A stretch of DNA of 64,000 nt, from the IMG/VR virus record IMGVR_UViG_3300046522_000252, positions 2,984 through 66,983 of that record; one strand, given 5' to 3'. This document shows, piece after piece, positions 16,397 through 24,588 of this stretch; the stretch's first letter is position 1, and every line of letters starts with the position of its first letter. Both the position numbers and the translations under genes were made by a program. The notes beneath the pieces are model-generated. The model ran no database searches, was not told where the DNA came from, and worked only from the letters and a program-made list of their open reading frames with translations. The stretch is from a virus.

Positions 16397-16842
16397 CGCG
16401 CGCCCGCCTTCACCCGAGAAGTGTGGCCAACATAGTTGTGATACGGACACCAGTTTTGATCGCGCGGTGTTTTGGCGCCGCAGAACAGATGGCCGCCCGG
16501 CGCGGTCCTATCCATCTCGATAGGCCAGTTGCATTCGTTCCGGTTCAAATCCATCAACGGCACCCGGCGCATATTCTCCGGCGGCGACGGCGGCGGGTCG
16601 TTGCGTGGTGCCGGTGGTGGCGAGGGCACGATCTTTAACCTTGGGGGTGTCGATGGCACGGATGTTCGCCTTTCCCTTGGTTTTGGTGGTGGTGGAGCGA
16701 TGGCCTTTAACTTTTTGTCGCGAAAAATCCGTCCGATGAAAGCATTCCGACCCATATGAAAAACGTCCGCGATCTGCCGCCTGGACAAACCGGCCTGGAT
16801 CATCCCGGTAATTCGTTCTCGCTCCTCGTCGGTGAACGGCAT
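16393..16842 (-). CDS. gcrA: GcrA-family cell-cycle regulator homolog
   Basis: N-terminal GLSRRQIA..MGRNAFIG HTH; C-terminal LMDL...CNWPI...FCG...WCPYH. Confidence 0.85.
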   Translation of the reverse strand: MPFTDEERERITGMIQAGLSRRQIADVFHMGRNAFIGRIFRDKKLKAIAPPPPKPRERRTSVPSTPPRLKIVPSPPPAPRNDPPPSPPENMRRVPLMDLNRNECNWPIEMDRTAPGGHLFCGAKTPRDQNWCPYHNYVGHTSRVKAGAR

Positions 16843-16854
16843 AGCCGTGTCCTC

Positions 16855-17418
16855 CTATGCGATCTCATCGTCATCGTCGGGATCATTGGCGCCGTCGTCA
16901 CCGGCGGCCGGGTCAGCGTCACTGGCGCGGGCAGCTTGTTTCTTTTCCATCGCCGCTTTCCAGTCGGCGAGCATTTGCGCCTGGGCCATCTGCCATTGAT
17001 CGAGCCATACCCGGCCCGGCTCGGAGCCTTCATCGTAGGGGCAAGCGTCGGCACTCTTCCCGGCAAACCCGGCCGCCTCGCCTTCACGGGCGGCCCGTTC
17101 GACAAGCGGCTCCCGGCTAAAGTCCAGCTCGGTCTGGGCGCCAATAGGCAGGGCGAAATAACGGCCGATCTCGGCCCGGCGCCGTTGTTCGTCGACGACG
17201 ATTTGCGGGTCTTCAATCGTTGCGCAGCGCAGGCCGAAATCGATGTCGGACAGGATCACGCCATCGGTCTTGGCAAGCTTTCGAAGGCGCAAGCGCTCGA
17301 CGTTCTCCATCTTGCAGATTTCCGTTTGCGCTTGGATCGCGCGGAAATGGTGCATGTAGAGCGCCTTGGCTTGGGCTGGTGTCAGATCGTGGGAATTGTC
17401 GCCGATGGTCGCGGGCAT
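16855..17418 (-). CDS. Hypothetical protein with C-terminal Rmf/CrpP-like motif
   Basis: EGEAAGFAGKSADACPY....WL..W. Confidence 0.55.
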   Translation of the reverse strand: MPATIGDNSHDLTPAQAKALYMHHFRAIQAQTEICKMENVERLRLRKLAKTDGVILSDIDFGLRCATIEDPQIVVDEQRRRAEIGRYFALPIGAQTELDFSREPLVERAAREGEAAGFAGKSADACPYDEGSEPGRVWLDQWQMAQAQMLADWKAAMEKKQAARASDADPAAGDDGANDPDDDDEIA

Positions 17419-17527
17419 GTGGTCTTCTCCTTTGGGGTTGGAGTGGCCACCGCGTTGCAGGTCCGATAAACGCGGTGGCCACTTTTCCCGCCGGTCTTTC
17501 GAGCCACGGGAAATCAGGCAGGCGACA

Positions 17528-17776
17528 TCATGCCGCCGCCTCTTTGCCGTCCGGCGCCGGGCCAAAGACATCCGGGCGGAGGCTGTAACGGGAAACGCCG
17601 CTCATCTTTTCGACCTCAAGGACGCGGGTCGCGGGGACGATCACCCATTGCATGACGGCCTGTCGCTTGATCCCAAGTCTGCTGGCCAGCGGCACCGGGC
17701 CGCCAGCCCGCGTCTTCGCAAGCTCACAAGCGATTGCGCGCGGGTCCGTCAGAAAGGTTTCTTTTCTCATATCCAT
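17528..17776 (-). CDS. cro: Cro-like (YdaS) regulator
   Basis: AGGPVPLASRLGIKRQAVMQW...VSRYSLRPDVFG; divergent from the repressor. Confidence 0.8.
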   Translation of the reverse strand: MDMRKETFLTDPRAIACELAKTRAGGPVPLASRLGIKRQAVMQWVIVPATRVLEVEKMSGVSRYSLRPDVFGPAPDGKEAAA

Positions 17777-17886
17777 GCCACAGTGTAAGCAAAGATTGCC
17801 CGGTTGCACAATGGGGGTTTACGAAAAATTATTGGCAAGGTTGTATTGCTTATGGCAAAGTTGTGAGAAGGTTAGGGAATAAACCA
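17777..17886. promoter_or_regulatory. Divergent cro/cI promoter-operator region
   Basis: AT-rich gap with several GCAA/TTGC half-sites. Confidence 0.5.
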
Positions 17887-18330
17887 ATGGCGAGAGGGAA
17901 ACCCTCGGACGCTGCGCCGGTGTTACGGCAAAAAAGAATGAGCACAGGGAAACACGAAAGGGATCAGCTCGCCGACCAGGAATTAGGTGAGCGCATCCAA
18001 TACCTTAGAACGGAAATCCTCGGTATCGGTCGCCAGGCCGACTTTGCCGAGCGTCTTGGTGTGACGCGCGGTGCTGTCGGTAACTGGGAGGTCGGGAAAG
18101 GGGTGAAGCGCGCGAACCTCGAACGGATCGCTCAAACATTCACTGTCTCCCTCGTGTGGCTGACCACTGGGGGCGGTGCACCAATTAGCAGGCAGAGCAT
18201 TGATGCGAGACTTGAGCTGCTGCCGCCTGAAGAATATGACCCGCTCTATGAACACTTCCAGGCAATGATAGATAATCGTATGCGATTCCTAGAGCGAAAA
18301 AAGGCGGAAGCGAAGAAGAAAAAGCCTTGA
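17887..18330 (+). CDS. cI: CI-like XRE repressor without an evident S24 peptidase domain
   Basis: QADFAERLGVTRGAVGNWEVG...WLTTG. Confidence 0.8.
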   Translation: MARGKPSDAAPVLRQKRMSTGKHERDQLADQELGERIQYLRTEILGIGRQADFAERLGVTRGAVGNWEVGKGVKRANLERIAQTFTVSLVWLTTGGGAPISRQSIDARLELLPPEEYDPLYEHFQAMIDNRMRFLERKKAEAKKKKP

Positions 18331-18349
18331 AACTATTGAGGAAACCACG

Positions 18350-18799
18350 ATGGGACGAAGTTTCTATGAACCGCTAGCGTCGATAGACAACTGTTCGAAC
18401 GTATCCCCGCTGGCGGACTTTCGCATTAACAGGATAGACAACCAGTCAATTATGTATGCGTCGACGGACGACGGGCAGCAACTCGCCGCTCACATCCGTT
18501 TCGTCGACGAAGCCGCCTGGGTGAACCACGAAGCCAGCGTCAACGCTGCCGCGATGGTTTTACAATTGAGGCTTTCGCCGGACTACGGCGCTGGCCAGAT
18601 CGCCCGGATGATGCGCCGGGGCGTCCGCCCCGACGTCGAACATAGCCACGTCAAGTATTATCCGGCGACGGATGAGTACGGCTATATTTTGCAGTTCTCC
18701 AATCACGGCCCCGTGCCGATCCTTTTGAAGCAATCCGACATTGACGCTTTCCGCGTCAAGGAATGGATCGCCCGCTCCGCCGCACGCGCCGGGCAGTGA
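18350..18799 (+). CDS. Hypothetical protein, likely co-transcribed with the repressor
   Basis: GAGG RBS; followed by hairpin gggaggcg...cgcctccc. Confidence 0.6.
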   Translation: MGRSFYEPLASIDNCSNVSPLADFRINRIDNQSIMYASTDDGQQLAAHIRFVDEAAWVNHEASVNAAAMVLQLRLSPDYGAGQIARMMRRGVRPDVEHSHVKYYPATDEYGYILQFSNHGPVPILLKQSDIDAFRVKEWIARSAARAGQ

Positions 18800-19076
18800 T
18801 CCATCCACGGGAGGCGTGACCGCCGCGCCTCCCGCCGGGAGTAAAAATTTTACCCGGCAAAACTCCCTCCTCAATCACATTTTGCAATTTTTTCTTACTA
18901 GCCACTTGTGCTCCTCAGCAATCTTTGCTTTCATGTGGGCCTCACCACCGCTTTTCGAAGTCCCGGACAGATCGACCAGGCATTCAAGCGGAAGTGGGTT
19001 TTCGGACGCCTGAACGCTGAACCGAAGGGCTGACCGGCGTGAATCGCCGGTCAGCTCAAGTAGGAGGCTATGGCAA

Positions 19077-19298
19077 ATGACTGGCTTTGTGTTCGCCATG
19101 GCGCCGTGCCTCGGCTGCAACCGGATTTTCAGTTTTAACCCGGCGTTGGTTCCTTCGCTGATGTTCGACGGGGAACGCAAGCCGCTATGCGAGAAGTGTT
19201 TCGCATACCTCAACCGGAGGCGCACAGCGCTTCACTTGCCGGTGTTTGTCGCCCCACCAGGCGCCTATCAGCCGATGCCAGAGGAGGAATTGCCGTGA
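19077..19298 (+). CDS. Small Zn-finger protein
   Basis: CLGC...CEKC; AGGAGG RBS. Confidence 0.65.
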   Translation: MTGFVFAMAPCLGCNRIFSFNPALVPSLMFDGERKPLCEKCFAYLNRRRTALHLPVFVAPPGAYQPMPEEELP

Positions 19299-19807
19299 GA
19301 CAGGAAACGGTGCTTGGCGTGAAGCTCGCTGAAAAAGGCTTTGTGCCGCGCAACATCAAATTCCAGATCGCGATTGCGCGATATCAGAATAGCGGCGGCG
19401 AGTACGGCGTGGCGCTTGCCATGTTGAACGCCGCTTTTGGACGGGGAAGCGAAGGCCAGAAGCCGGAAGCTGCCGACAAGGCCGGGAACCGTGAGCCCGA
19501 CGCTGCGGCACGCAAGATGCCAGGCCATGCCAGGCGCGGTGCCGCCGCAATCGGCGCGGTGCAGGGCACGATGCAAAAATCCTTGTTCGACTCCACGATC
19601 TTGCCCGATGGCCGCACGTTGCGCGAGGTCAAATGGAGCGAATGCCCGCGCCTTTCGCGTCGCTATCGCTACCTCTCCCGCGTGCTGATGGCGATCCACA
19701 ACGTCGGCATTCCCGCCGATCCCAACGACACAATCGACAACCTCGTCAATGAGGACGGGTTGAAGGAAATCATCTCAGCGGTGGAGCGGTTCAATGACAT
19801 TCACTGA
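19295..19807 (+). CDS. Hypothetical protein upstream of the Tas-like gene; contains a degenerate array unit and a spacer match
   Basis: GTG start after GAGGAGG; overlaps the Tas-like ORF start. Confidence 0.65.
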   Translation: MRQETVLGVKLAEKGFVPRNIKFQIAIARYQNSGGEYGVALAMLNAAFGRGSEGQKPEAADKAGNREPDAAARKMPGHARRGAAAIGAVQGTMQKSLFDSTILPDGRTLREVKWSECPRLSRRYRYLSRVLMAIHNVGIPADPNDTIDNLVNEDGLKEIISAVERFNDIH

Positions 19808-21392
19808 TCGAAAGAATGATGGCGAAACGGGCCACGACATCAACGCCGATAAGTCCAGTCTGGAATTGCCCGCCTCGCCATCGCCGAAAGACGGGAAGGG
19901 TCCGCTTGCTTTTGCCGACAAGGCCAATGGAGAAATGCCCAACCCGTCCCCCAATGGCGAAACGGTCCATCGAGTGAATGCCGCCGAAACGGCTGCAATC
20001 GGCTTGACTGTTTCGCCGCCGAAAGACGGAAAAGGTCGCCCCGCGCTTGCCGATAAGGCCAAGGTTTCGGTGCCTGATCCGTCCCCCAAAGATGACGCGG
20101 CGGGCCACCCCGACTCTGCCGCTGAGGCCGTTGCAAGTGTGCCCGCCGCGTCATCGCCGAAAGATGAGTTGGGCCATTCAGAGCGTGCCGAAGAGGCCGC
20201 AGACCCGATGCCCGACCCATCGCCGAATGATGGCGCGGCTGGCCGGAAAGCAAATGCAACATCCAGTGAAATGTTGCCCGCCGCGTCATCAGCTATGATC
20301 GACCATCTGGCCGAGCTTCAGGTCCGCCGAAAATTCTATATCGGCGTCGTCAATCGGCAGACGAATGCGGCCAAAGCCCTTGTCCGCCGCGCGCTGGGCT
20401 GGCGCTATGATGCCGAGGACGCCGGGCGGGAAAAGCTGAACGCCCGCGCCGCGCGGATCGTGGCCGCTGCTTTGGCCGGGAAAGAGCAAAAGGCCGAGGA
20501 TGCGGCAGCATTCGGCGCGCTGGCGTTCGATCTGGCGACCATCGCGGCGGCCATCGAGCCTTGCACGACCGCCCGGCATGAAATCGAACTGGAAATGAAG
20601 CGCACCGCCCGCAAGCTGCCGGTGTGGTTCGCGTGGGCGAAGGACGTTAAAGGGCTAGGGGAACTTGGCCTCGCGGCCATCATCGCCGAGGCTGGCGATC
20701 TTTCCGGCTACCCCAAGAAGGGCCACCTCTGGAAACGCCTCGGCCTCGCACCGCTCGACGGCAAAGCCTTTTCGACGTGGCGGATGAAAGGTGGGCTGAC
20801 CGCCGAACAATGGACAGACGCCGGTTATTCGCCGCGCCGCCGGGCTGAAATCTATGCGGTGATTTCGGAACCGCTATTCCGCGCGCAATCGGTCGCCAGT
20901 GGATCATACCGCGCGATCTATGATCGCCGCCGGGAGCATACCGCCGAGACGCACCCGGACTGGACCAAAGCGCACAGCCACATGGACGGGCTGCGGATCA
21001 TGACGAAATATTTAATTCGCGACCTTTGGGCCGCGTGGCGGGCCTTGCATGCCGTGCCTATTCAGGCCGCTTCACTCGTGCCCGCCAACCTATCCGAGAA
21101 TCGCCGGGAGGCCAAAATCTGTCACCCTGAAAGGGTCGGAGGACGCGTGCCGACCGGCGAACCGAACGAGCGGGAGGCCGGGCAGGTTCCGCCTGAAAAG
21201 GCCGGAGTTTTTGTGCCGACCGCTCACCCCAACCGCCGCCGGGAGGCTAACGGACGGATATCTGAAACGGCCGAAAAAAAATTGCCGACCGGCGGCGGCG
21301 CGGAGGCTATCCCAGTCATGCCCGAAAAAGGCCAAAAGACGGGTGCCTCCGCGCCATCATCCGCCACCCAAGATCAAAGAGGTGAACTATGA
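19794..21392 (+). CDS. TasA-like protein (coiled coil + IS110/Nop-type RNA-binding domain, no nuclease domain) with array-encoded low-complexity termini
   Basis: Core about 20295-21040: KGLGELGLAAIIAEAGDLSGYPKKGHLWKRLGLAP...YRAIYDRRR...AHSHMDGLRIMTKYLIRDLWAAWR; no DEDD RuvC or HNH seen; flanked by dual-spacer arrays. Confidence 0.8.
   Translation: MTFTDRKNDGETGHDINADKSSLELPASPSPKDGKGPLAFADKANGEMPNPSPNGETVHRVNAAETAAIGLTVSPPKDGKGRPALADKAKVSVPDPSPKDDAAGHPDSAAEAVASVPAASSPKDELGHSERAEEAADPMPDPSPNDGAAGRKANATSSEMLPAASSAMIDHLAELQVRRKFYIGVVNRQTNAAKALVRRALGWRYDAEDAGREKLNARAARIVAAALAGKEQKAEDAAAFGALAFDLATIAAAIEPCTTARHEIELEMKRTARKLPVWFAWAKDVKGLGELGLAAIIAEAGDLSGYPKKGHLWKRLGLAPLDGKAFSTWRMKGGLTAEQWTDAGYSPRRRAEIYAVISEPLFRAQSVASGSYRAIYDRRREHTAETHPDWTKAHSHMDGLRIMTKYLIRDLWAAWRALHAVPIQAASLVPANLSENRREAKICHPERVGGRVPTGEPNEREAGQVPPEKAGVFVPTAHPNRRREANGRISETAEKKLPTGGGAEAIPVMPEKGQKTGASAPSSATQDQRGEL
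19818..20290 (+). ncRNA. TIGR-like stem-loop guide-RNA array, 7 units
   Basis: Unit: stem-GGCC(A/G)-N9-TGCC..GGCC(A/G)-N9-TGCC-stem; spacer A starts at 19835, 19904, 19970, 20039, 20108, 20177, 20246. Confidence 0.85.
21036..21355 (+). ncRNA. TIGR-like stem-loop guide-RNA array, 5 units
   Basis: Same architecture; spacer A starts at 21046, 21115, 21181, 21250, 21310. Confidence 0.8.
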
Positions 21393-22393
21393 CCATCGTC
21401 GACCCTTGGGAAAACTGGCGGGCCGCATTGGAAAACCCGCGCAAGATTGGCAGCGGGAAACTCGTTGTTCATCCGGGCGGCACGCCGTGGACTGGATTTT
21501 TCCGGGTCCGCAAAAAGGATGGCGACTGGGAACCCGTGCAGTTCTGGCAGGACGATCTAGGCTTGTGGTACGCGACGCGCTCCGGCAAGCCGGTCGATCC
21601 TGACCGCATCCCTGATCTGTTTCTATGGGCGGTGCGCCAGCCGATCAGCGAATTGGCCTTCGACCGCGCCACGGCGGGCAACGGTTGGGCCGACGAACCG
21701 GAGCGGACGCCGGGCATCGGCGACAATTCCGGCGAGGCCGACCCCTTCGACGCTCTGAATATTGAGTGGCTGGGCGAGAAGGAGCTGGTCGAAGGCTTCC
21801 TCAAAATCCCGATCACCTCGAAGGACGAAGCTGACCGCGCAGCCATTTGGGCGACGCGCCTCAACGGCATTGCCAAGAGGGCGGACAAGCTCCACGGCGA
21901 CGAAAAGGCGCCGGTCCTCGTCGCAGGGCGGCGCGTCGACTCCAAGTGGCGGGAGCTGCGCGAGCAGCCGAGCGGAATGGCAATCCTTCTGAAACGGCAT
22001 CAGGACAAATGGTTGCGGGAGCAAGAGAGGCTGGAGCGTGAGCGCGTTGCCGCCGCCGCCGTGGAGGCTGAGCGCTTGCGGATCGAAGCCGAGGAGGCCG
22101 CCGCCAAGGCGCGGACGCCGGACGACGTGGCGGAGGCTGGCGCCAAGGTTGCCGCCGCCCAGGAAGCCGAGCGCGAAGCAACATATCAGCGCCCGCAAGC
22201 CGGGCGAACCGGCGCCAAGACATCGCTCCGCACGTTCCGAACCGGGAAGATTGTCGACTTCGATACTTTCCTGATGGCGGCCAAAGATCATGACGAGATC
22301 AGGGAGGCGGCACAGACCACCGCCAACCGCCTCGCGCGGGCCAAGGTCACGCTGGCGGGGATGGAAATCGTCGAGGAACAACGGACGGTTTGA
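21389..22393 (+). CDS. Coiled-coil phage protein preceding the recombinase
   Basis: 334 aa, AGAGGT RBS, ATGA overlap. Confidence 0.65.
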   Translation: MTIVDPWENWRAALENPRKIGSGKLVVHPGGTPWTGFFRVRKKDGDWEPVQFWQDDLGLWYATRSGKPVDPDRIPDLFLWAVRQPISELAFDRATAGNGWADEPERTPGIGDNSGEADPFDALNIEWLGEKELVEGFLKIPITSKDEADRAAIWATRLNGIAKRADKLHGDEKAPVLVAGRRVDSKWRELREQPSGMAILLKRHQDKWLREQERLERERVAAAAVEAERLRIEAEEAAAKARTPDDVAEAGAKVAAAQEAEREATYQRPQAGRTGAKTSLRTFRTGKIVDFDTFLMAAKDHDEIREAAQTTANRLARAKVTLAGMEIVEEQRTV

Positions 22394-22404
22394 AAGGCAC
22401 GGAT

Positions 22405-23352
22405 ATGAACCAGGCAGTCGCAAGAACCGTAACCCAGGAACAGCCGCCGCGTTCGGTCCTCCACGACATGGCAAGTCGCTTCGGCATGGAGCCAGGCCCG
22501 TTCGAGCTGACCGTTCGCGCGCAGTGCTCTCCGGCACCGAAGAAAGGTGAGAGTTTTCGACCTCTCAGCAAAGAGGAATTCGCCGCCTTCCTACTGGTGG
22601 CGCGTCAGTATGATCTCAATCCGATCACCCGCGAGATTTTCGCCTATCCGAAGCGCGGCGGCGGCGTTGTTCCCATCGTCTCGATTGACGGCTGGGTTAA
22701 CCTCGTCAACTCACACCCGGCCTGCGATGGCTTCGAATTCGATTGGGTCGAGGATGAAAAAGGTCGGCCGATCTCTTGCACCTGCATTATGCACCGCAAG
22801 GATCGCAGCCACCCGACATCCGTCACCGAGTATCTTTCCGAATGCTGGCGCGACACGGACCCGTGGAAAATGCCCCACCGGATGCTCCGTCACAAGGCGC
22901 TGATCCAGTGCGCCCGCTATGCGTTCGGCTTCGCCGGTATCTTTGATGAGGATGAAGGCCAGCGGATTATCGCCGCTACCGCTCTGGAGGCCGCCCCGGC
23001 GCCGAGACCTCCCCGGCCGGGACCGGCGCCCGTCTTCGATCAGGAAGACGCTGAGAGGCCACAGGAAGGCCAGGGAATGGTCATCGATCACGAAGCGGAG
23101 CCGGTTAGCGGCGACGAGGCGGATGATGCCGCGAGCGGCGGCGGTGGCGTTGACGCTCTTGATCTCGACGCCCTGGCCTACTTCGACGAGCTGCGCGACC
23201 GTCTGGCCGAAGCGCCGGACCTGGAAACCGTCGAAGAGGTCTGGACGAACCTTGACCCGATGGCGCGCTTCGAAGGCGACGATGGCGGCCAAGACCTTTG
23301 CCTGAACATCAAAGACCGGCGCGTCAAACAGCTTGAGGAGAAAAGCAAATGA
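22405..23352 (+). CDS. bet: Bet/RecT-family single-strand annealing protein
   Basis: FAAFLLVARQYDLNPITREIFAYP...IVSIDGW...HRMLRHKALIQCARYAFGFAGI. Confidence 0.9.
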   Translation: MNQAVARTVTQEQPPRSVLHDMASRFGMEPGPFELTVRAQCSPAPKKGESFRPLSKEEFAAFLLVARQYDLNPITREIFAYPKRGGGVVPIVSIDGWVNLVNSHPACDGFEFDWVEDEKGRPISCTCIMHRKDRSHPTSVTEYLSECWRDTDPWKMPHRMLRHKALIQCARYAFGFAGIFDEDEGQRIIAATALEAAPAPRPPRPGPAPVFDQEDAERPQEGQGMVIDHEAEPVSGDEADDAASGGGGVDALDLDALAYFDELRDRLAEAPDLETVEEVWTNLDPMARFEGDDGGQDLCLNIKDRRVKQLEEKSK

Positions 23353-23621
23353 AAAACCCGGCGGTTGTTCGATTAGAGCGGCGATTGGGATCGCTGCTAG
23401 AGGAGGAGCTGAGTCTATGCGCGACCGCGCTTGAGCAGCAAGTGCTTATCGAATTGGCGATCAAGATGTCCATTGGCGCCTGGACTATCCGCTATCGTCA
23501 GGAGTCGCCGGAGCTGAAAGAGAAGTGCCTCACGGCTCTTGAGGGCTTTACCGGCTTTGTCGTGGACACATACCGCACGGCGCTGTTTCACCCTGAAAAC
23601 ACGAAAGGATCACGCCAATGA
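23349..23621 (+). CDS. Hypothetical protein
   Basis: Coupled ORF. Confidence 0.55.
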   Translation: MKNPAVVRLERRLGSLLEEELSLCATALEQQVLIELAIKMSIGAWTIRYRQESPELKEKCLTALEGFTGFVVDTYRTALFHPENTKGSRQ

Positions 23622-23947
23622 AACCGATTTTCGACAACTCCAGCCTGATCGATTGGTTGTCCGGGAAGCACCGTGACGAGCGCTATGACTACCTCGACGG
23701 TCACGTCTGCCTGCTAGCGCAATATCTGAACTATCGCGGATTCAAGGGCGCCGTCGTCGATGCTGAAGTGGCAATCCTACCGGATCGAATGGCACCCTAT
23801 GCCCTGCCGCGCACTTGGAATGAGATTGCACGGGCGAGGCCGTGGACGTTCGGCGCCGCGCTTGATCGCGCTCGGGAGGCGTTGACGCCAGCAAAGCTGA
23901 CGGGCCGTAACGCCGTGCTGGTGTTGACCGATGGAGTCGACCGATGA
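23618..23947 (+). CDS. Hypothetical protein
   Basis: Coupled ORF. Confidence 0.6.
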   Translation: MKPIFDNSSLIDWLSGKHRDERYDYLDGHVCLLAQYLNYRGFKGAVVDAEVAILPDRMAPYALPRTWNEIARARPWTFGAALDRAREALTPAKLTGRNAVLVLTDGVDR

Positions 23948-24588
23948 GTAACCGCCCTCTCAACAACATGACCGCGCGCATTGATCGCCTTCCGCGAGAT
24001 GCGCGCGGCTACCCGGTTCCCAAGTTTGTTCACTGGAAAGACGGTGTGCCGGATTTCCGCATTATCGATCCGTACCACATGGACAAGTGCATCAAGCGCG
24101 ATGCCTGCTGGATTTGCGGCGATACGATGGGAACGCACAAGGCTTTCGTCATCGGTCCGATGTGCTGCATTAACCGGATATCGGCGGAGCCGCCAAGCCA
24201 CCGCGACTGCGCAATCTTCGCGGCGACGAACTGCCCTTTCCTGACGACGCCAGCGGCCAAGCGCAACGAACGCGACTTGCCGGACACCAGGTTTGTTGCC
24301 GGGAAGATGATCGAACGAAACCCCGGCGTCACGGCGCTCTGGATGACGCGCTCGTATCAGCTCATGCACGTCAAGCGCGGTGTCCTTTTTATCATCGGCG
24401 ACCCGGACTCGGTTGATTTCTATGCACGGGGTAGGACGGCCACGCGCGCTGAGATCGAAACGTCGGTGACATCCGGCTATCCGCTCCTGATGGAAGAGGC
24501 AAAGCGCGAAGGCCGGGATGCAATCGACGAACTGGCGCGGTTGCGGCGGCGCTTTGACAATCTTCTCGATGAGGCGGTGCCATCATGA
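23944..24588 (+). CDS. Cys/His-rich phage protein
   Basis: RGYPVP...CWICG...EPPSHRDC...CPFL. Confidence 0.7.
   Translation: MSNRPLNNMTARIDRLPRDARGYPVPKFVHWKDGVPDFRIIDPYHMDKCIKRDACWICGDTMGTHKAFVIGPMCCINRISAEPPSHRDCAIFAATNCPFLTTPAAKRNERDLPDTRFVAGKMIERNPGVTALWMTRSYQLMHVKRGVLFIIGDPDSVDFYARGRTATRAEIETSVTSGYPLLMEEAKREGRDAIDELARLRRRFDNLLDEAVPS

What the first reader, a model, noticed from the sequence alone, without database searches (positions are those of the whole stretch)
19794..21392. Both guide arrays are embedded in frame within the Tas ORF (dual-coding DNA)
Seen: spacer-A spacings are 69, 66, 69, 69, 69, 69 nt (5' array) and 69, 66, 69, 60 nt (3' array). All are multiples of 3 even though stem and loop lengths vary, and the 532-codon ORF has no internal stop. 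Its ATG (19794) has a GGAG RBS and overlaps the upstream gene end, its stop overlaps the next ATG (21389), and the internal Met at 20295 has no obvious RBS. Inference: the arrays are under selection to stay translatable, producing repetitive tails (SPKDG..., ADKA...). Guide maturation would then cut the protein's own mRNA and the polycistron that includes bet, a possible feedback loop. I do not know of this arrangement being described.
Basis: partly seen in the sequence, partly recalled or inferred. Interest (0 to 1): 0.85.

Follow-up and report, generated by a model that had tools for sequence, protein, structure and literature searches.

The report
Guide-RNA arrays inside a phage tasA gene
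A phage gene for a nuclease-less RNA-guided DNA-binding protein (TasA) carries its own twelve guide-RNA hairpin units in frame inside its disordered head and tail, an arrangement that is real and conserved in relatives but was already described in general terms in a 2026 preprint.

Summary
ORF 19794-21392 (532 aa) is open. It carries 7 stem-loop units in its 5' part and 5 in its 3' part, with spacer-A spacings of 69, 66, 69, 69, 69, 69 and 69, 66, 69, 60 nt.

The middle (residues ~161-420) is a Tas-type Nop domain: the best sequence and fold matches in the PDB are TasR and TasH. Both tails are predicted to be disordered. The stems covary. A model built from the 12 units finds only them in the window, and finds similar units beside the tasA core in all 17 related loci fetched.

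Relatives largely support selection for an open frame:
- the start codon is coupled to the upstream gene, with or without an array;
- four loci have no alternative start near the core;
- unit spacings are enriched for multiples of 3;
- spacers avoid stops in the read phase.

In relatives a third array lies between two conserved domains of the upstream gene, so it must be translated there. The rule is not absolute: in some loci units lie outside the ORF.

The novelty claim fails. Xu et al. (bioRxiv, September 2026) already report stem-loop TIGR arrays inside tas coding sequences without breaking the frame. Expression, processing and the proposed feedback loop remain untested.

The parts
19783..19786 (+). 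GGAG ribosome-binding site, 7 nt before the tasA ATG
   Evidence: Read from the sequence. The same GGAG-N7-ATG junction aligns in L009, L014, L002 and L004.
19794..21392 (+). tasA ORF, 532 codons. Its ATG overlaps the end of the upstream gene and its stop overlaps the next ATG.
   Evidence: Pfam Transposase_20 is weak (E 0.005) and PHROG 4285 gives 1.2e-14.
19818..20290 (+). 5' TIGR stem-loop array, units U1-U7. Model coordinates are 19821-19879, 19890-19948, 19956-20017, 20025-20083, 20094-20152, 20163-20221 and 20232-20287. It encodes residues ~9-166.
   Evidence: AlphaFold pLDDT is below 50 for residues 1-154 apart from short gaps.
20274..21053 (+). Nop-type Tas core, residues 161-420 (coiled coil plus RNA-binding C-terminal domain). 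No nuclease domain, so TasA type.
   Evidence: pLDDT is 90 or more. phmmer against the PDB finds only 9mty_A TasR, E 2.3e-5. The Foldseek top 8 are TasR and TasH, followed by IS110-family recombinases. The family has 2969 representatives at E <= 1e-3.
21032..21356 (+). 3' TIGR stem-loop array, units V1-V5 (21032-21091, 21101-21160, 21167-21226, 21236-21295, 21296-21356). The 5' stem of V1 is encoded by the last conserved core helix (residues ~413-420, including the nearly invariant W415).
   Evidence: There is no stop between the core and 21390, so a ribosome that translates the core must cross this array.
19187..19807 (+). Upstream partner gene; its start codon is uncertain. It has a conserved N motif (IAIARYQNSGG) and a conserved C domain (KSLFD..LPDGR..). 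In relatives the linker holds 3-4 array units. Here only a degenerate remnant remains at 19446-19506.
   Evidence: The remnant scores 12.7 bits, E 2.4. No Pfam or PHROG hit.
21389..22393 (+). Downstream exonuclease-like gene; its start overlaps the tasA stop (ATGA)
   Evidence: PHROG 10477 exonuclease, 7e-14. An ATGA junction is also seen in L002, L003, L005, L006, L009, L014, L017 and L018.
22390..23352 (+). RecT/Bet-like single-strand annealing protein of the same operon
   Evidence: Pfam RecT 2.5e-22 and PHROG 252 8.4e-60.

Best explanation
This is a TIGR-TasA system of the stem-loop class, in the early (recombination) operon of a complete 67-kb phage genome.

The 12 hairpin units are guide-RNA (tigRNA) units. 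Each has two 9-nt spacers bounded by box C/D-like motifs and closed by a covarying stem. They were inserted and multiplied inside the tasA reading frame. Seven sit between the translationally coupled start codon and the Nop core. Five sit between the core and the stop that overlaps the next gene.

The primary selection is on the RNA: stems, boxes and exchangeable spacers. A second, weaker selection keeps the frame open, with indels in threes and no stops in spacers. This is needed so that ribosomes starting at the coupled ATG can reach the core and, after it, the coupled downstream gene. The encoded tails are disordered by-products such as SPKDG, ADKA and [LMV]P.

Shown here: the anatomy, RNA covariation, Tas homology, spacer hypervariability in relatives, and frame conservation in relatives.

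Inferred, not shown: the operon transcript is processed into tigRNAs, TasA binds them, and the complex binds DNA without cutting, acting as a repressor as published for other TasA proteins. It would follow that a given transcript is either translated or cut.
For: Tas identity:
- The only PDB sequence hit is TasR 9mty (identified as TasR in Faure 2025).
- The top fold matches are TasR and TasH, TMt 0.51-0.65.

Arrays are real:
- Unit anatomy.
- 10 of 11 stem pairs are compensatory.
- The covariance model finds the 12 units at 40-59 bits, against 18 bits for the next + strand hit.
- In all 17 of 17 related loci it finds units flanking the core, and all 120 hits at E <= 1 are on the tasA strand.

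Guide behaviour: in four close relatives aligned without a single gap over 686 columns, 87 of 90 spacer columns vary, against 82 of 596 others. Spacer identity is 0.18-0.38, against 0.90-0.95 elsewhere.

Frame maintenance:
- The region between the first proximal unit and the core is stop-free in the core frame in 10 of 11 distinct loci, against 5 of 11 and 0 of 11 for the other two frames.
- The junction ATG is conserved, including in array-less loci.
- L003, L009, L010 and L012 have no other in-frame start near the core.
- 42 of 65 end-anchored spacings are multiples of 3, with lengths of 63-75.
- Spacers avoid stops: 4 against 10 and 13, and 9 of 1000 shuffles do as well.
- A relative in run X2 has 303 nt instead of 504 nt from ATG to core, both multiples of 3.
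- In 13 of 15 loci the upstream gene has a conserved N motif and a conserved C domain in one frame, with 3-4 units between them.

Other:
- The tails are disordered, pLDDT below 50.
- Published precedent: intragenic stem-loop arrays that do not disrupt the frame and map to disordered regions; BlTasA intragenic tigRNAs seen by small-RNA sequencing; TasA acting as a repressor.
Against: - GC3 in the arrays (0.60 and 0.63) is far below the core (0.745), so codon usage gives no sign of translation.
- Other frames are also stop-free: 2 of 6 over each array. The +1 phase is stop-free in 47 of 62 well-anchored units in relatives.
- 23 of 65 spacings are not multiples of 3. Some of these may be anchoring errors of the model.
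- L005 and L015 have an SD plus ATG at the core, with units outside the ORF. L008 breaks the junction frame in unit 1. For L017 the junction ATG is not in frame.
- 5 of 28 3' units lie beyond the tasA stop.
- In the window itself, in-frame ATGs exist at 20208 (with GAGG upstream), 20271 and 20295, so a shorter product cannot be excluded.
- Only 2 of the 12 units match the strict TIGRFinder box set in both halves; the rest are one-letter variants (against the motif list read).
- There is no CUU in the linkers.
- There are no expression or processing data.
Confidence: 0.72

Rival explanations
1. The 5' array is an untranslated leader. TasA starts at an internal codon (20295, or 20208 or 20271), and the open frame from 19794 is a passive consequence of G+C-rich, repeat-derived sequence. 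Only the 3' array is translated, and only because no stop happens to follow the core.
For: - There is no GC3 bias in the array.
- A second stop-free frame runs over the same 501 nt.
- The equal spacings are partly inherited from duplication of a 135-138-nt block.
- In-frame ATGs exist at 20208 (GAGG upstream), 20271 and 20295.
- L005 and L015 show that relatives can start at the core with units upstream of the start.
Against: - The GGAG-N7-ATG junction is conserved and is the only start in loci without an array.
- L003, L009, L010 and L012 have no in-frame start within -90..+45 nt of the core.
- The core frame is open over the proximal array in 10 of 11 loci, against 5 and 0 of 11 for the other frames.
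- The ATG-to-core length stays a multiple of 3 in the X2 relative.
- 20295 has no SD-like motif.
Confidence: 0.2
2. The repeats are a protein feature: a disordered 22-23-residue tandem repeat with its own function, for example binding the partner protein or nucleic acid. On this reading the hairpins are secondary or regulatory mRNA structure, not guides.
For: - The units are read in one conserved phase (NTG|CCN, giving [LMV]P, and the loop giving A-D/E-K-A) in tasA and in the upstream gene of relatives.
- No tigRNA has been observed for this locus.
Against: - The residues encoded by spacers are replaced wholesale between loci that are 90-95% identical elsewhere, while the nucleotides that form stems and boxes stay fixed.
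- Stems change by compensatory pairs, which protein selection does not produce.
- Units also occur outside any long ORF: 6 units.
- The anatomy matches published stem-loop tigRNAs next to a Tas homologue.
Confidence: 0.04
3. The arrays are transcribed on their own, from promoters inside the gene. Guide production and tasA translation are then independent, and there is no feedback through mRNA cleavage.
For: Xu et al. state that sequence alone cannot distinguish processing of a long transcript from internal promoters (Discussion).
Against: - No sigma-70-like promoter or intrinsic terminator pattern lies on the + strand between 19000 and 21700. Over the scanned 16500-24000 there were 3 promoter-like sites against 2.0 expected, all at 18249-18874. 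The scan is crude and covers only one promoter type.
- The overlapping stop/start junctions at both ends indicate one operon.
Confidence: 0.15

Closest known systems
Stem-loop TIGR-TasA systems with intragenic arrays (Bifidobacterium longum BlTasA and the TIGRFinder survey; Xu et al., bioRxiv 10.64898/2026.09.09.750476; sections 5, 11, 13 and passages of the methods read)
   Same: - A nuclease-less Nop-domain protein.
- Stem-loop units with two 9-nt spacers, box C (CNA type) and box D (TG/CG), and variable palindromic stems.
- Arrays at the 5' and 3' ends of the tas coding sequence that do not break the frame.
- Embedded segments that correspond to disordered protein regions.
- The same speculation that guide maturation and Tas translation are linked.
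   Different: - In BlTasA the embedded unit maps to the internal wedge loop. Here both arrays are terminal tails, and V1 overlaps the last core helix.
- No CUU motif appears in the linkers here; they read GCCGAAA or CCCCAAW.
- Most box C triplets here are one-letter variants of the published set.
- In relatives of this locus a further array lies inside a different, conserved neighbouring gene. The terms neighbor, adjacent gene, upstream gene and flanking gene do not occur in the text I searched. The supplements were closed, so I cannot say whether this clade is in their tables.
Peromyscus leucopus gut TasA stem-loop locus (Faure et al., Science 2025, PMC12045711; section 9 passages and the Fig. 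7 legend read)
   Same: A TasA without a nuclease. Stem-loop units are split into several sub-arrays around the gene, and units are processed at the linkers.
   Different: As far as the passages I read show, that array is described as three sub-arrays separated by a ~450-nt intergenic region, not as part of the reading frame.
Dual-repeat TIGR-TasR and TasH (PDB 9MTY, 9W03)
   Same: The same Nop / IS110-C-terminal fold and the same dual-spacer guide logic.
   Different: Those proteins carry RuvC or HNH nucleases. They use fixed 36-nt guides with conserved edge and loop repeats in separate non-coding arrays, and have a Y/H processing loop.
IS110-family recombinases with bridge RNA (IS621 8WT6, ISCro4 9T56)
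   Same: A more distant fold relative (Foldseek ranks 9-13). Pfam Transposase_20 is weak, at E 0.005 and below its cut-off.
   Different: This protein has no RuvC-like DEDD domain and no catalytic serine domain, and its arrays are multi-unit.

Membership tests
TIGR-Tas (stem-loop class, TasA) | Protein with a Nop-type (IS110 C-terminal-like) RNA-binding domain | tested here: met
   phmmer against the PDB gives only 9mty_A TasR, E 2.3e-5, query 260-420. The Foldseek top 8 are TasR and TasH chains, probability 1.00, TMt 0.51-0.65. The model core has pLDDT of 90 or more.
TIGR-Tas (stem-loop class, TasA) | TasA subtype: no RuvC or HNH nuclease domain | tested here: met
   Residues 1-154 and 446-532 have pLDDT below 50 with no secondary structure. 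No Pfam family other than a weak Transposase_20 hit on the core.
TIGR-Tas (stem-loop class, TasA) | [quoted passage not shown] | tested here: met
   All 12 of 12 units have the 3+9+2 / loop / 3+9+2 layout. Only 2 of 12 (U1, V5) match the strict TIGRFinder set (CCA/CGA/CTA/CAA with TG/CG) in both halves. The rest are one-letter variants, which the published pipeline accepts with longer stems.
TIGR-Tas (stem-loop class, TasA) | Variable but palindromic stems closing each spacer pair | tested here: met
   10 of 11 stem pairs have changes on both sides. 85.9% of cells pair, against 61% in shuffles (0 of 500 reach the observed value) and 30-44% when slid.
TIGR-Tas (stem-loop class, TasA) | Spacers vary between related loci while the scaffold is kept | tested here: met
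   87 of 90 spacer columns are variable, against 82 of 596 other columns, in L002, L003, L010 and L012, with no gaps.
TIGR-Tas (stem-loop class, TasA) | Array transcribed and processed into unit-sized tigRNAs that bind the Tas protein | not testable with these tools
   No RNA run is listed as holding the stretch. All runs laid were DNA contigs.
TIGR-Tas (stem-loop class, TasA) | CUU motif at the stem base or linker, proposed as the processing mark for stem-loop tigRNAs | tested here: not met
   Linkers read are GCCGAAA, CCCCAAT, GCCGAAA, CCCCAAA, GCCGAAA and GCCGAAT in the 5' array, and ACC...-type in the 3' array. None contains CTT. The preprint itself reports that the motif's frequency differs between clades (Extended Data Fig. 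6f legend).
Intragenic (dual-coding) TIGR arrays as described by Xu et al. 2026 | Units lie inside the tas coding sequence without disrupting the frame, in disordered regions | tested here: met
   The ORF is open across all 12 units and the tails are disordered. The frame is conserved in most relatives.
IS110-family transposase | N-terminal RuvC-like DEDD domain plus a C-terminal Transposase_20 domain above the family threshold | tested here: not met
   Transposase_20 scores 17.7 bits, below the 21.3 cut-off, on residues 284-321 only. There is no DEDD domain hit and the N-terminal 154 residues are disordered.

The most novel reading that the evidence does not exclude
In this phage lineage, tigRNA units behave as in-frame, exchangeable cassettes in two adjacent genes: tasA and a conserved partner gene, where they form the linker between two conserved domains. 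They are read in one conserved phase. Each change of guide therefore also rewrites a peptide segment, and every transcript is either translated or cut into guides. This would make guide output, TasA and partner dosage, and expression of the downstream exonuclease/RecT genes mutually dependent. An array inside a non-tas gene, and any function of the conserved reading phase, are not in the papers I could read.
Probability: 0.3. Interest if true: 0.7.

Novelty: new member of a known kind. Interest (0 to 1): 0.45.

Why it matters
TIGR-Tas is a young field, and how stem-loop guides are made is an open question. The published survey notes intragenic arrays only briefly.

This locus and its relatives form a compact natural series for testing whether guide maturation competes with translation. 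Within one operon type the series includes:
- loci with no proximal array;
- arrays in the untranslated gap;
- arrays fused in frame;
- arrays inside a second gene.

The series also shows that guides can diversify by length-preserving spacer replacement under the extra constraint of avoiding stop codons. Anyone annotating phage genomes should know that the low-complexity tails of such proteins can be guide arrays.

The locus itself, though, is an instance of an arrangement already reported.

Tried and rejected
- My strict TIGRFinder-like motif scan of the window, with a one-mismatch stem rule, found only V5 within the arrays, plus 31 scattered chance hits on both strands. It was too strict on stems and too loose on boxes, so I replaced it with a covariance model.
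- Tandem Repeats Finder saw no array, because the copies are too diverged.
- Start-anchored spacings from the model looked non-periodic: 13 of 30, 6 of 21 and 10 of 14 were multiples of 3. I judged the start anchor unreliable because stem lengths differ, and used the box D2 end anchor instead. This is a choice made after seeing both.
- My first spacer stop-codon test was circular, because the units had been chosen for lying in ORFs. I discarded it in favour of the anchor-defined phase test.
- Target search in the 64-kb window: the one match with 2 or fewer mismatches (U1 at 19351) is not significant on its own, at 0.18 expected.
- Rfam: no family matches in 19000-22000 at E <= 1.
- The promoter/terminator scan showed nothing above chance.
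- No RNA holder is listed for the stretch, so nothing can be said about expression. Runs X3-X5 held only small shares and short pieces, and were not used.
- The search for related loci with P0007, P0019 and P0003 on viral contigs found nothing.
- The order-level genome search found matches in only 2 of 301 genomes searched and added no new lineage that I analysed. L019 and L020 were not analysed.
- L011 and L013 were dropped from all counts as duplicates of L002 and L003.
- Supplements of the two TIGR papers were closed, so I cannot tell whether this clade or its partner gene is listed there.
Full report
**What is there.** The window lies in a virus record of 66,983 bases that CheckV rates as complete. 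The ORF 19794-21392 on the + strand is open for 532 codons. GGAG at 19783-19786 precedes the ATG by 7 nt. The upstream ORF ends at 19805-19807, inside the first codons of this gene. The stop at 21390-21392 overlaps the ATG of the next gene at 21389. The neighbours are an HTH repressor-like gene (17734-18330), two genes without family hits, then after tasA an exonuclease-like gene and a RecT/Bet-like annealing protein. This is the early recombination operon of a temperate-type phage.

**The protein.**
- Pfam gives only a sub-threshold Transposase_20 hit on residues 284-321. PHROGs gives a 'transposase' family at 1.2e-14 on residues 249-420.
- Against PDB sequences, the single hit is 9mty_A (E 2.3e-5, residues 260-420). 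Faure et al. 2025 name this entry as their TasR-tigRNA-DNA structure.
- An AlphaFold model built on a 75-sequence alignment has pLDDT of 90 or more for residues ~161-420. It is below 50 for residues 1-154 (with short gaps) and 446-532.
- The eight best Foldseek matches in the PDB are TasR and TasH chains (TMt 0.51-0.65), followed by IS110-family recombinases.
- The core belongs to a large family: 2969 representatives at E <= 1e-3. In these the core sits at very different offsets in proteins of about 250-650 residues. The extensions of the 18 that I read are low-complexity and periodic, like those here.
- With no nuclease domain, the protein is a TasA.

**The arrays.**
- Reading the sequence unit by unit gives 7 units in 19818-20290 and 5 in 21032-21356.
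- Each unit consists of a stem, box C (CCA or a one-letter variant), 9 nt, box D (mostly TG), a loop of 6-12 nt, a second box C, 9 nt, TG, and the closing stem.
- The 5' region folds into seven regular hairpins (z -6.6). The 3' region is less striking (z -2.35).
- Ten of eleven stem pairs change on both sides between units. 85.9% of cells pair, against 61% in shuffles and 30-44% when the partners are slid.
- A covariance model of the units finds only these 12 in the window at 39.6-59 bits. The next + strand hit scores 18 bits.
- The layout is that of published stem-loop tigRNAs. Only U1 and V5 meet the strict published box set in both halves, and the linkers lack the CUU motif.
- Rfam has no match.

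**Relatives.**
- Seventeen loci were fetched, 15 of them distinct. They come from Pannonibacter (two prophages), Bauldia, Zhengella, Aminobacter and Mesorhizobium genomes and from eleven IMG/VR contigs. Core identity ranges from 81% to 30%.
- In all 17 the model finds units on the tasA strand on both sides of the core. All 120 hits at E <= 1 are on that strand.
- The units form three groups: a distal group of 3-4 units, a proximal group of 0-5 units directly before the core, and a 3' group of 1-5 units.
- Four close relatives align over 686 columns without a gap. They differ in 87 of 90 spacer columns but in only 82 of 596 other columns. This is what exchangeable guides should look like.

**Is the frame kept?**
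- Several independent lines say yes, mostly.
- (a) The junction GGAG-N7-ATG, overlapping the upstream gene's stop, is conserved. In the loci without a proximal array (L006, L007, L016, L018) it is the start that leads straight into the core. The array therefore looks inserted behind an existing start codon.
- (b) In L003, L009, L010 and L012 there is no ATG, GTG or TTG in frame from 90 nt before to 45 nt after the core start.
- (c) The stretch from the first proximal unit to the core is stop-free in the core frame in 10 of 11 distinct loci, against 5 of 11 and 0 of 11 for the other two frames.
- (d) Anchored on the second box D, unit spacings of 63-75 nt are multiples of 3 in 42 of 65 neighbouring pairs. 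Most well-anchored units are read in one phase, NTG|CCN.
- (e) With the phase defined by that anchor, so not by ORF membership, 4 stops touch spacers, against 10 and 13 in the other phases. Only 9 of 1000 spacer shuffles give 4 or fewer (24 of 1000 after dropping three close relatives).
- (f) A contig in run X2 carries a relative with 303 nt instead of 504 nt between ATG and core, both multiples of 3, and no indel across the 3' array.
- (g) An ATGA stop/start overlap with the next gene follows the 3' array in the window and in L002, L003, L005, L006, L009, L014, L017 and L018.
- (h) The distal array lies inside the upstream gene, between a conserved N-terminal motif (IAIAxYQNNGG-like; 13 of 15 loci and the window) and a conserved C-terminal domain, all in one frame. 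A ribosome making that protein has to read through the units.

**Against an absolute rule.**
- GC3 in the window's arrays is 0.60 and 0.63, against 0.745 in the core.
- Two of six frames are stop-free over each array. The +1 phase is stop-free in 47 of 62 anchored units.
- 23 of 65 spacings are not multiples of 3.
- L005 and L015 have an SD and ATG directly at the core, with units upstream of it. L008 leaves the junction ATG's frame inside its first, degenerate unit. In L017 the junction differs.
- Five of 28 3' units lie past the tasA stop.
- In the window, ATGs at 20208, 20271 and 20295 remain possible starts.
- My reading: the 3' array is almost certainly translated, because no stop intervenes. 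I estimate translation of the 5' array at about 0.7.

**Mechanism.**
- Shown: the anatomy, RNA-level selection, homology to Tas, guide-like spacer turnover, and a second layer of selection for an open frame.
- Inferred from published TasA work: the operon transcript yields unit-sized tigRNAs, and TasA dimers loaded with them bind both strands of an 18-bp target and repress it.
- If units are cut from the same transcript that is translated, guide production would destroy the tasA, exonuclease and RecT message.
- No promoter-like or terminator-like pattern lies inside the gene, and no RNA run holds the locus.

**Novelty.**
- The searches for TIGR-Tas / tigRNA and for tigRNA + intragenic lead to Xu et al., bioRxiv 2026-09-11. 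[quoted passage not shown] They also say that these segments map to disordered regions, and that this may link maturation and translation. So the arrangement is described, and this locus is a new member.
- Three things were not found in the text I could search (supplements closed). One is an array inside a conserved neighbouring gene. The second is a conserved reading phase. The third is statistics on indels in threes and stop avoidance in spacers.

Noticed in passing
window 19187-19807; L002-L018 about 2100-2650: The gene upstream of tasA is conserved across the family, with an N-terminal IAIAxYQNNGG-like motif and a C-terminal KSLFD/VLDSF...DGR domain. In 15 of 15 distinct relatives it carries 1-4 tigRNA-like units in the linker between these two parts, in its own reading frame. 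In the window the linker holds only a degenerate remnant (19446-19506, 12.7 bits). It has no Pfam or PHROG family.
   Followed up: partly
window 19351-19368: Spacer A of unit U1 followed by the reverse complement of its spacer B matches this site in the upstream gene at 16 of 18 positions. A control with mismatched A/B pairs expects 0.18 such hits for 12 units, so the match is suggestive only.
   Followed up: partly
L005 2755-2980: Here the upstream gene and tasA are in the same frame, separated by a single TGA. Three units lie between that stop and an SD plus ATG 18 nt before the core. This is an intergenic version of the proximal array.
   Followed up: partly
L008 2601-2681: In the closest viral relative after L009, the conserved junction ATG is out of frame with the core. 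The shift lies inside the first, degenerate unit (about 2 nt missing in its loop). It could be a real frameshift or an assembly error.
   Followed up: partly
L002 and L003 (two contigs of one Pannonibacter genome): One genome carries two copies of the locus that are about 91% identical outside the spacers but have unrelated spacers (identity 0.38).
   Followed up: partly
window 19836-20298, run X2: A root-metagenome run holds a relative, about 88-90% identical in the flanks, whose 5' array is about three units shorter (261 nt in place of 462 nt).
   Followed up: partly
window 21032-21056: The 5' stem and first spacer of unit V1 are encoded by the end of the last conserved helix of the Nop core (D410, L411, W412 and W415 are nearly invariant). 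This stretch is therefore under protein and RNA constraint at once. The first 3' unit overlaps the core end in relatives as well.
   Followed up: partly
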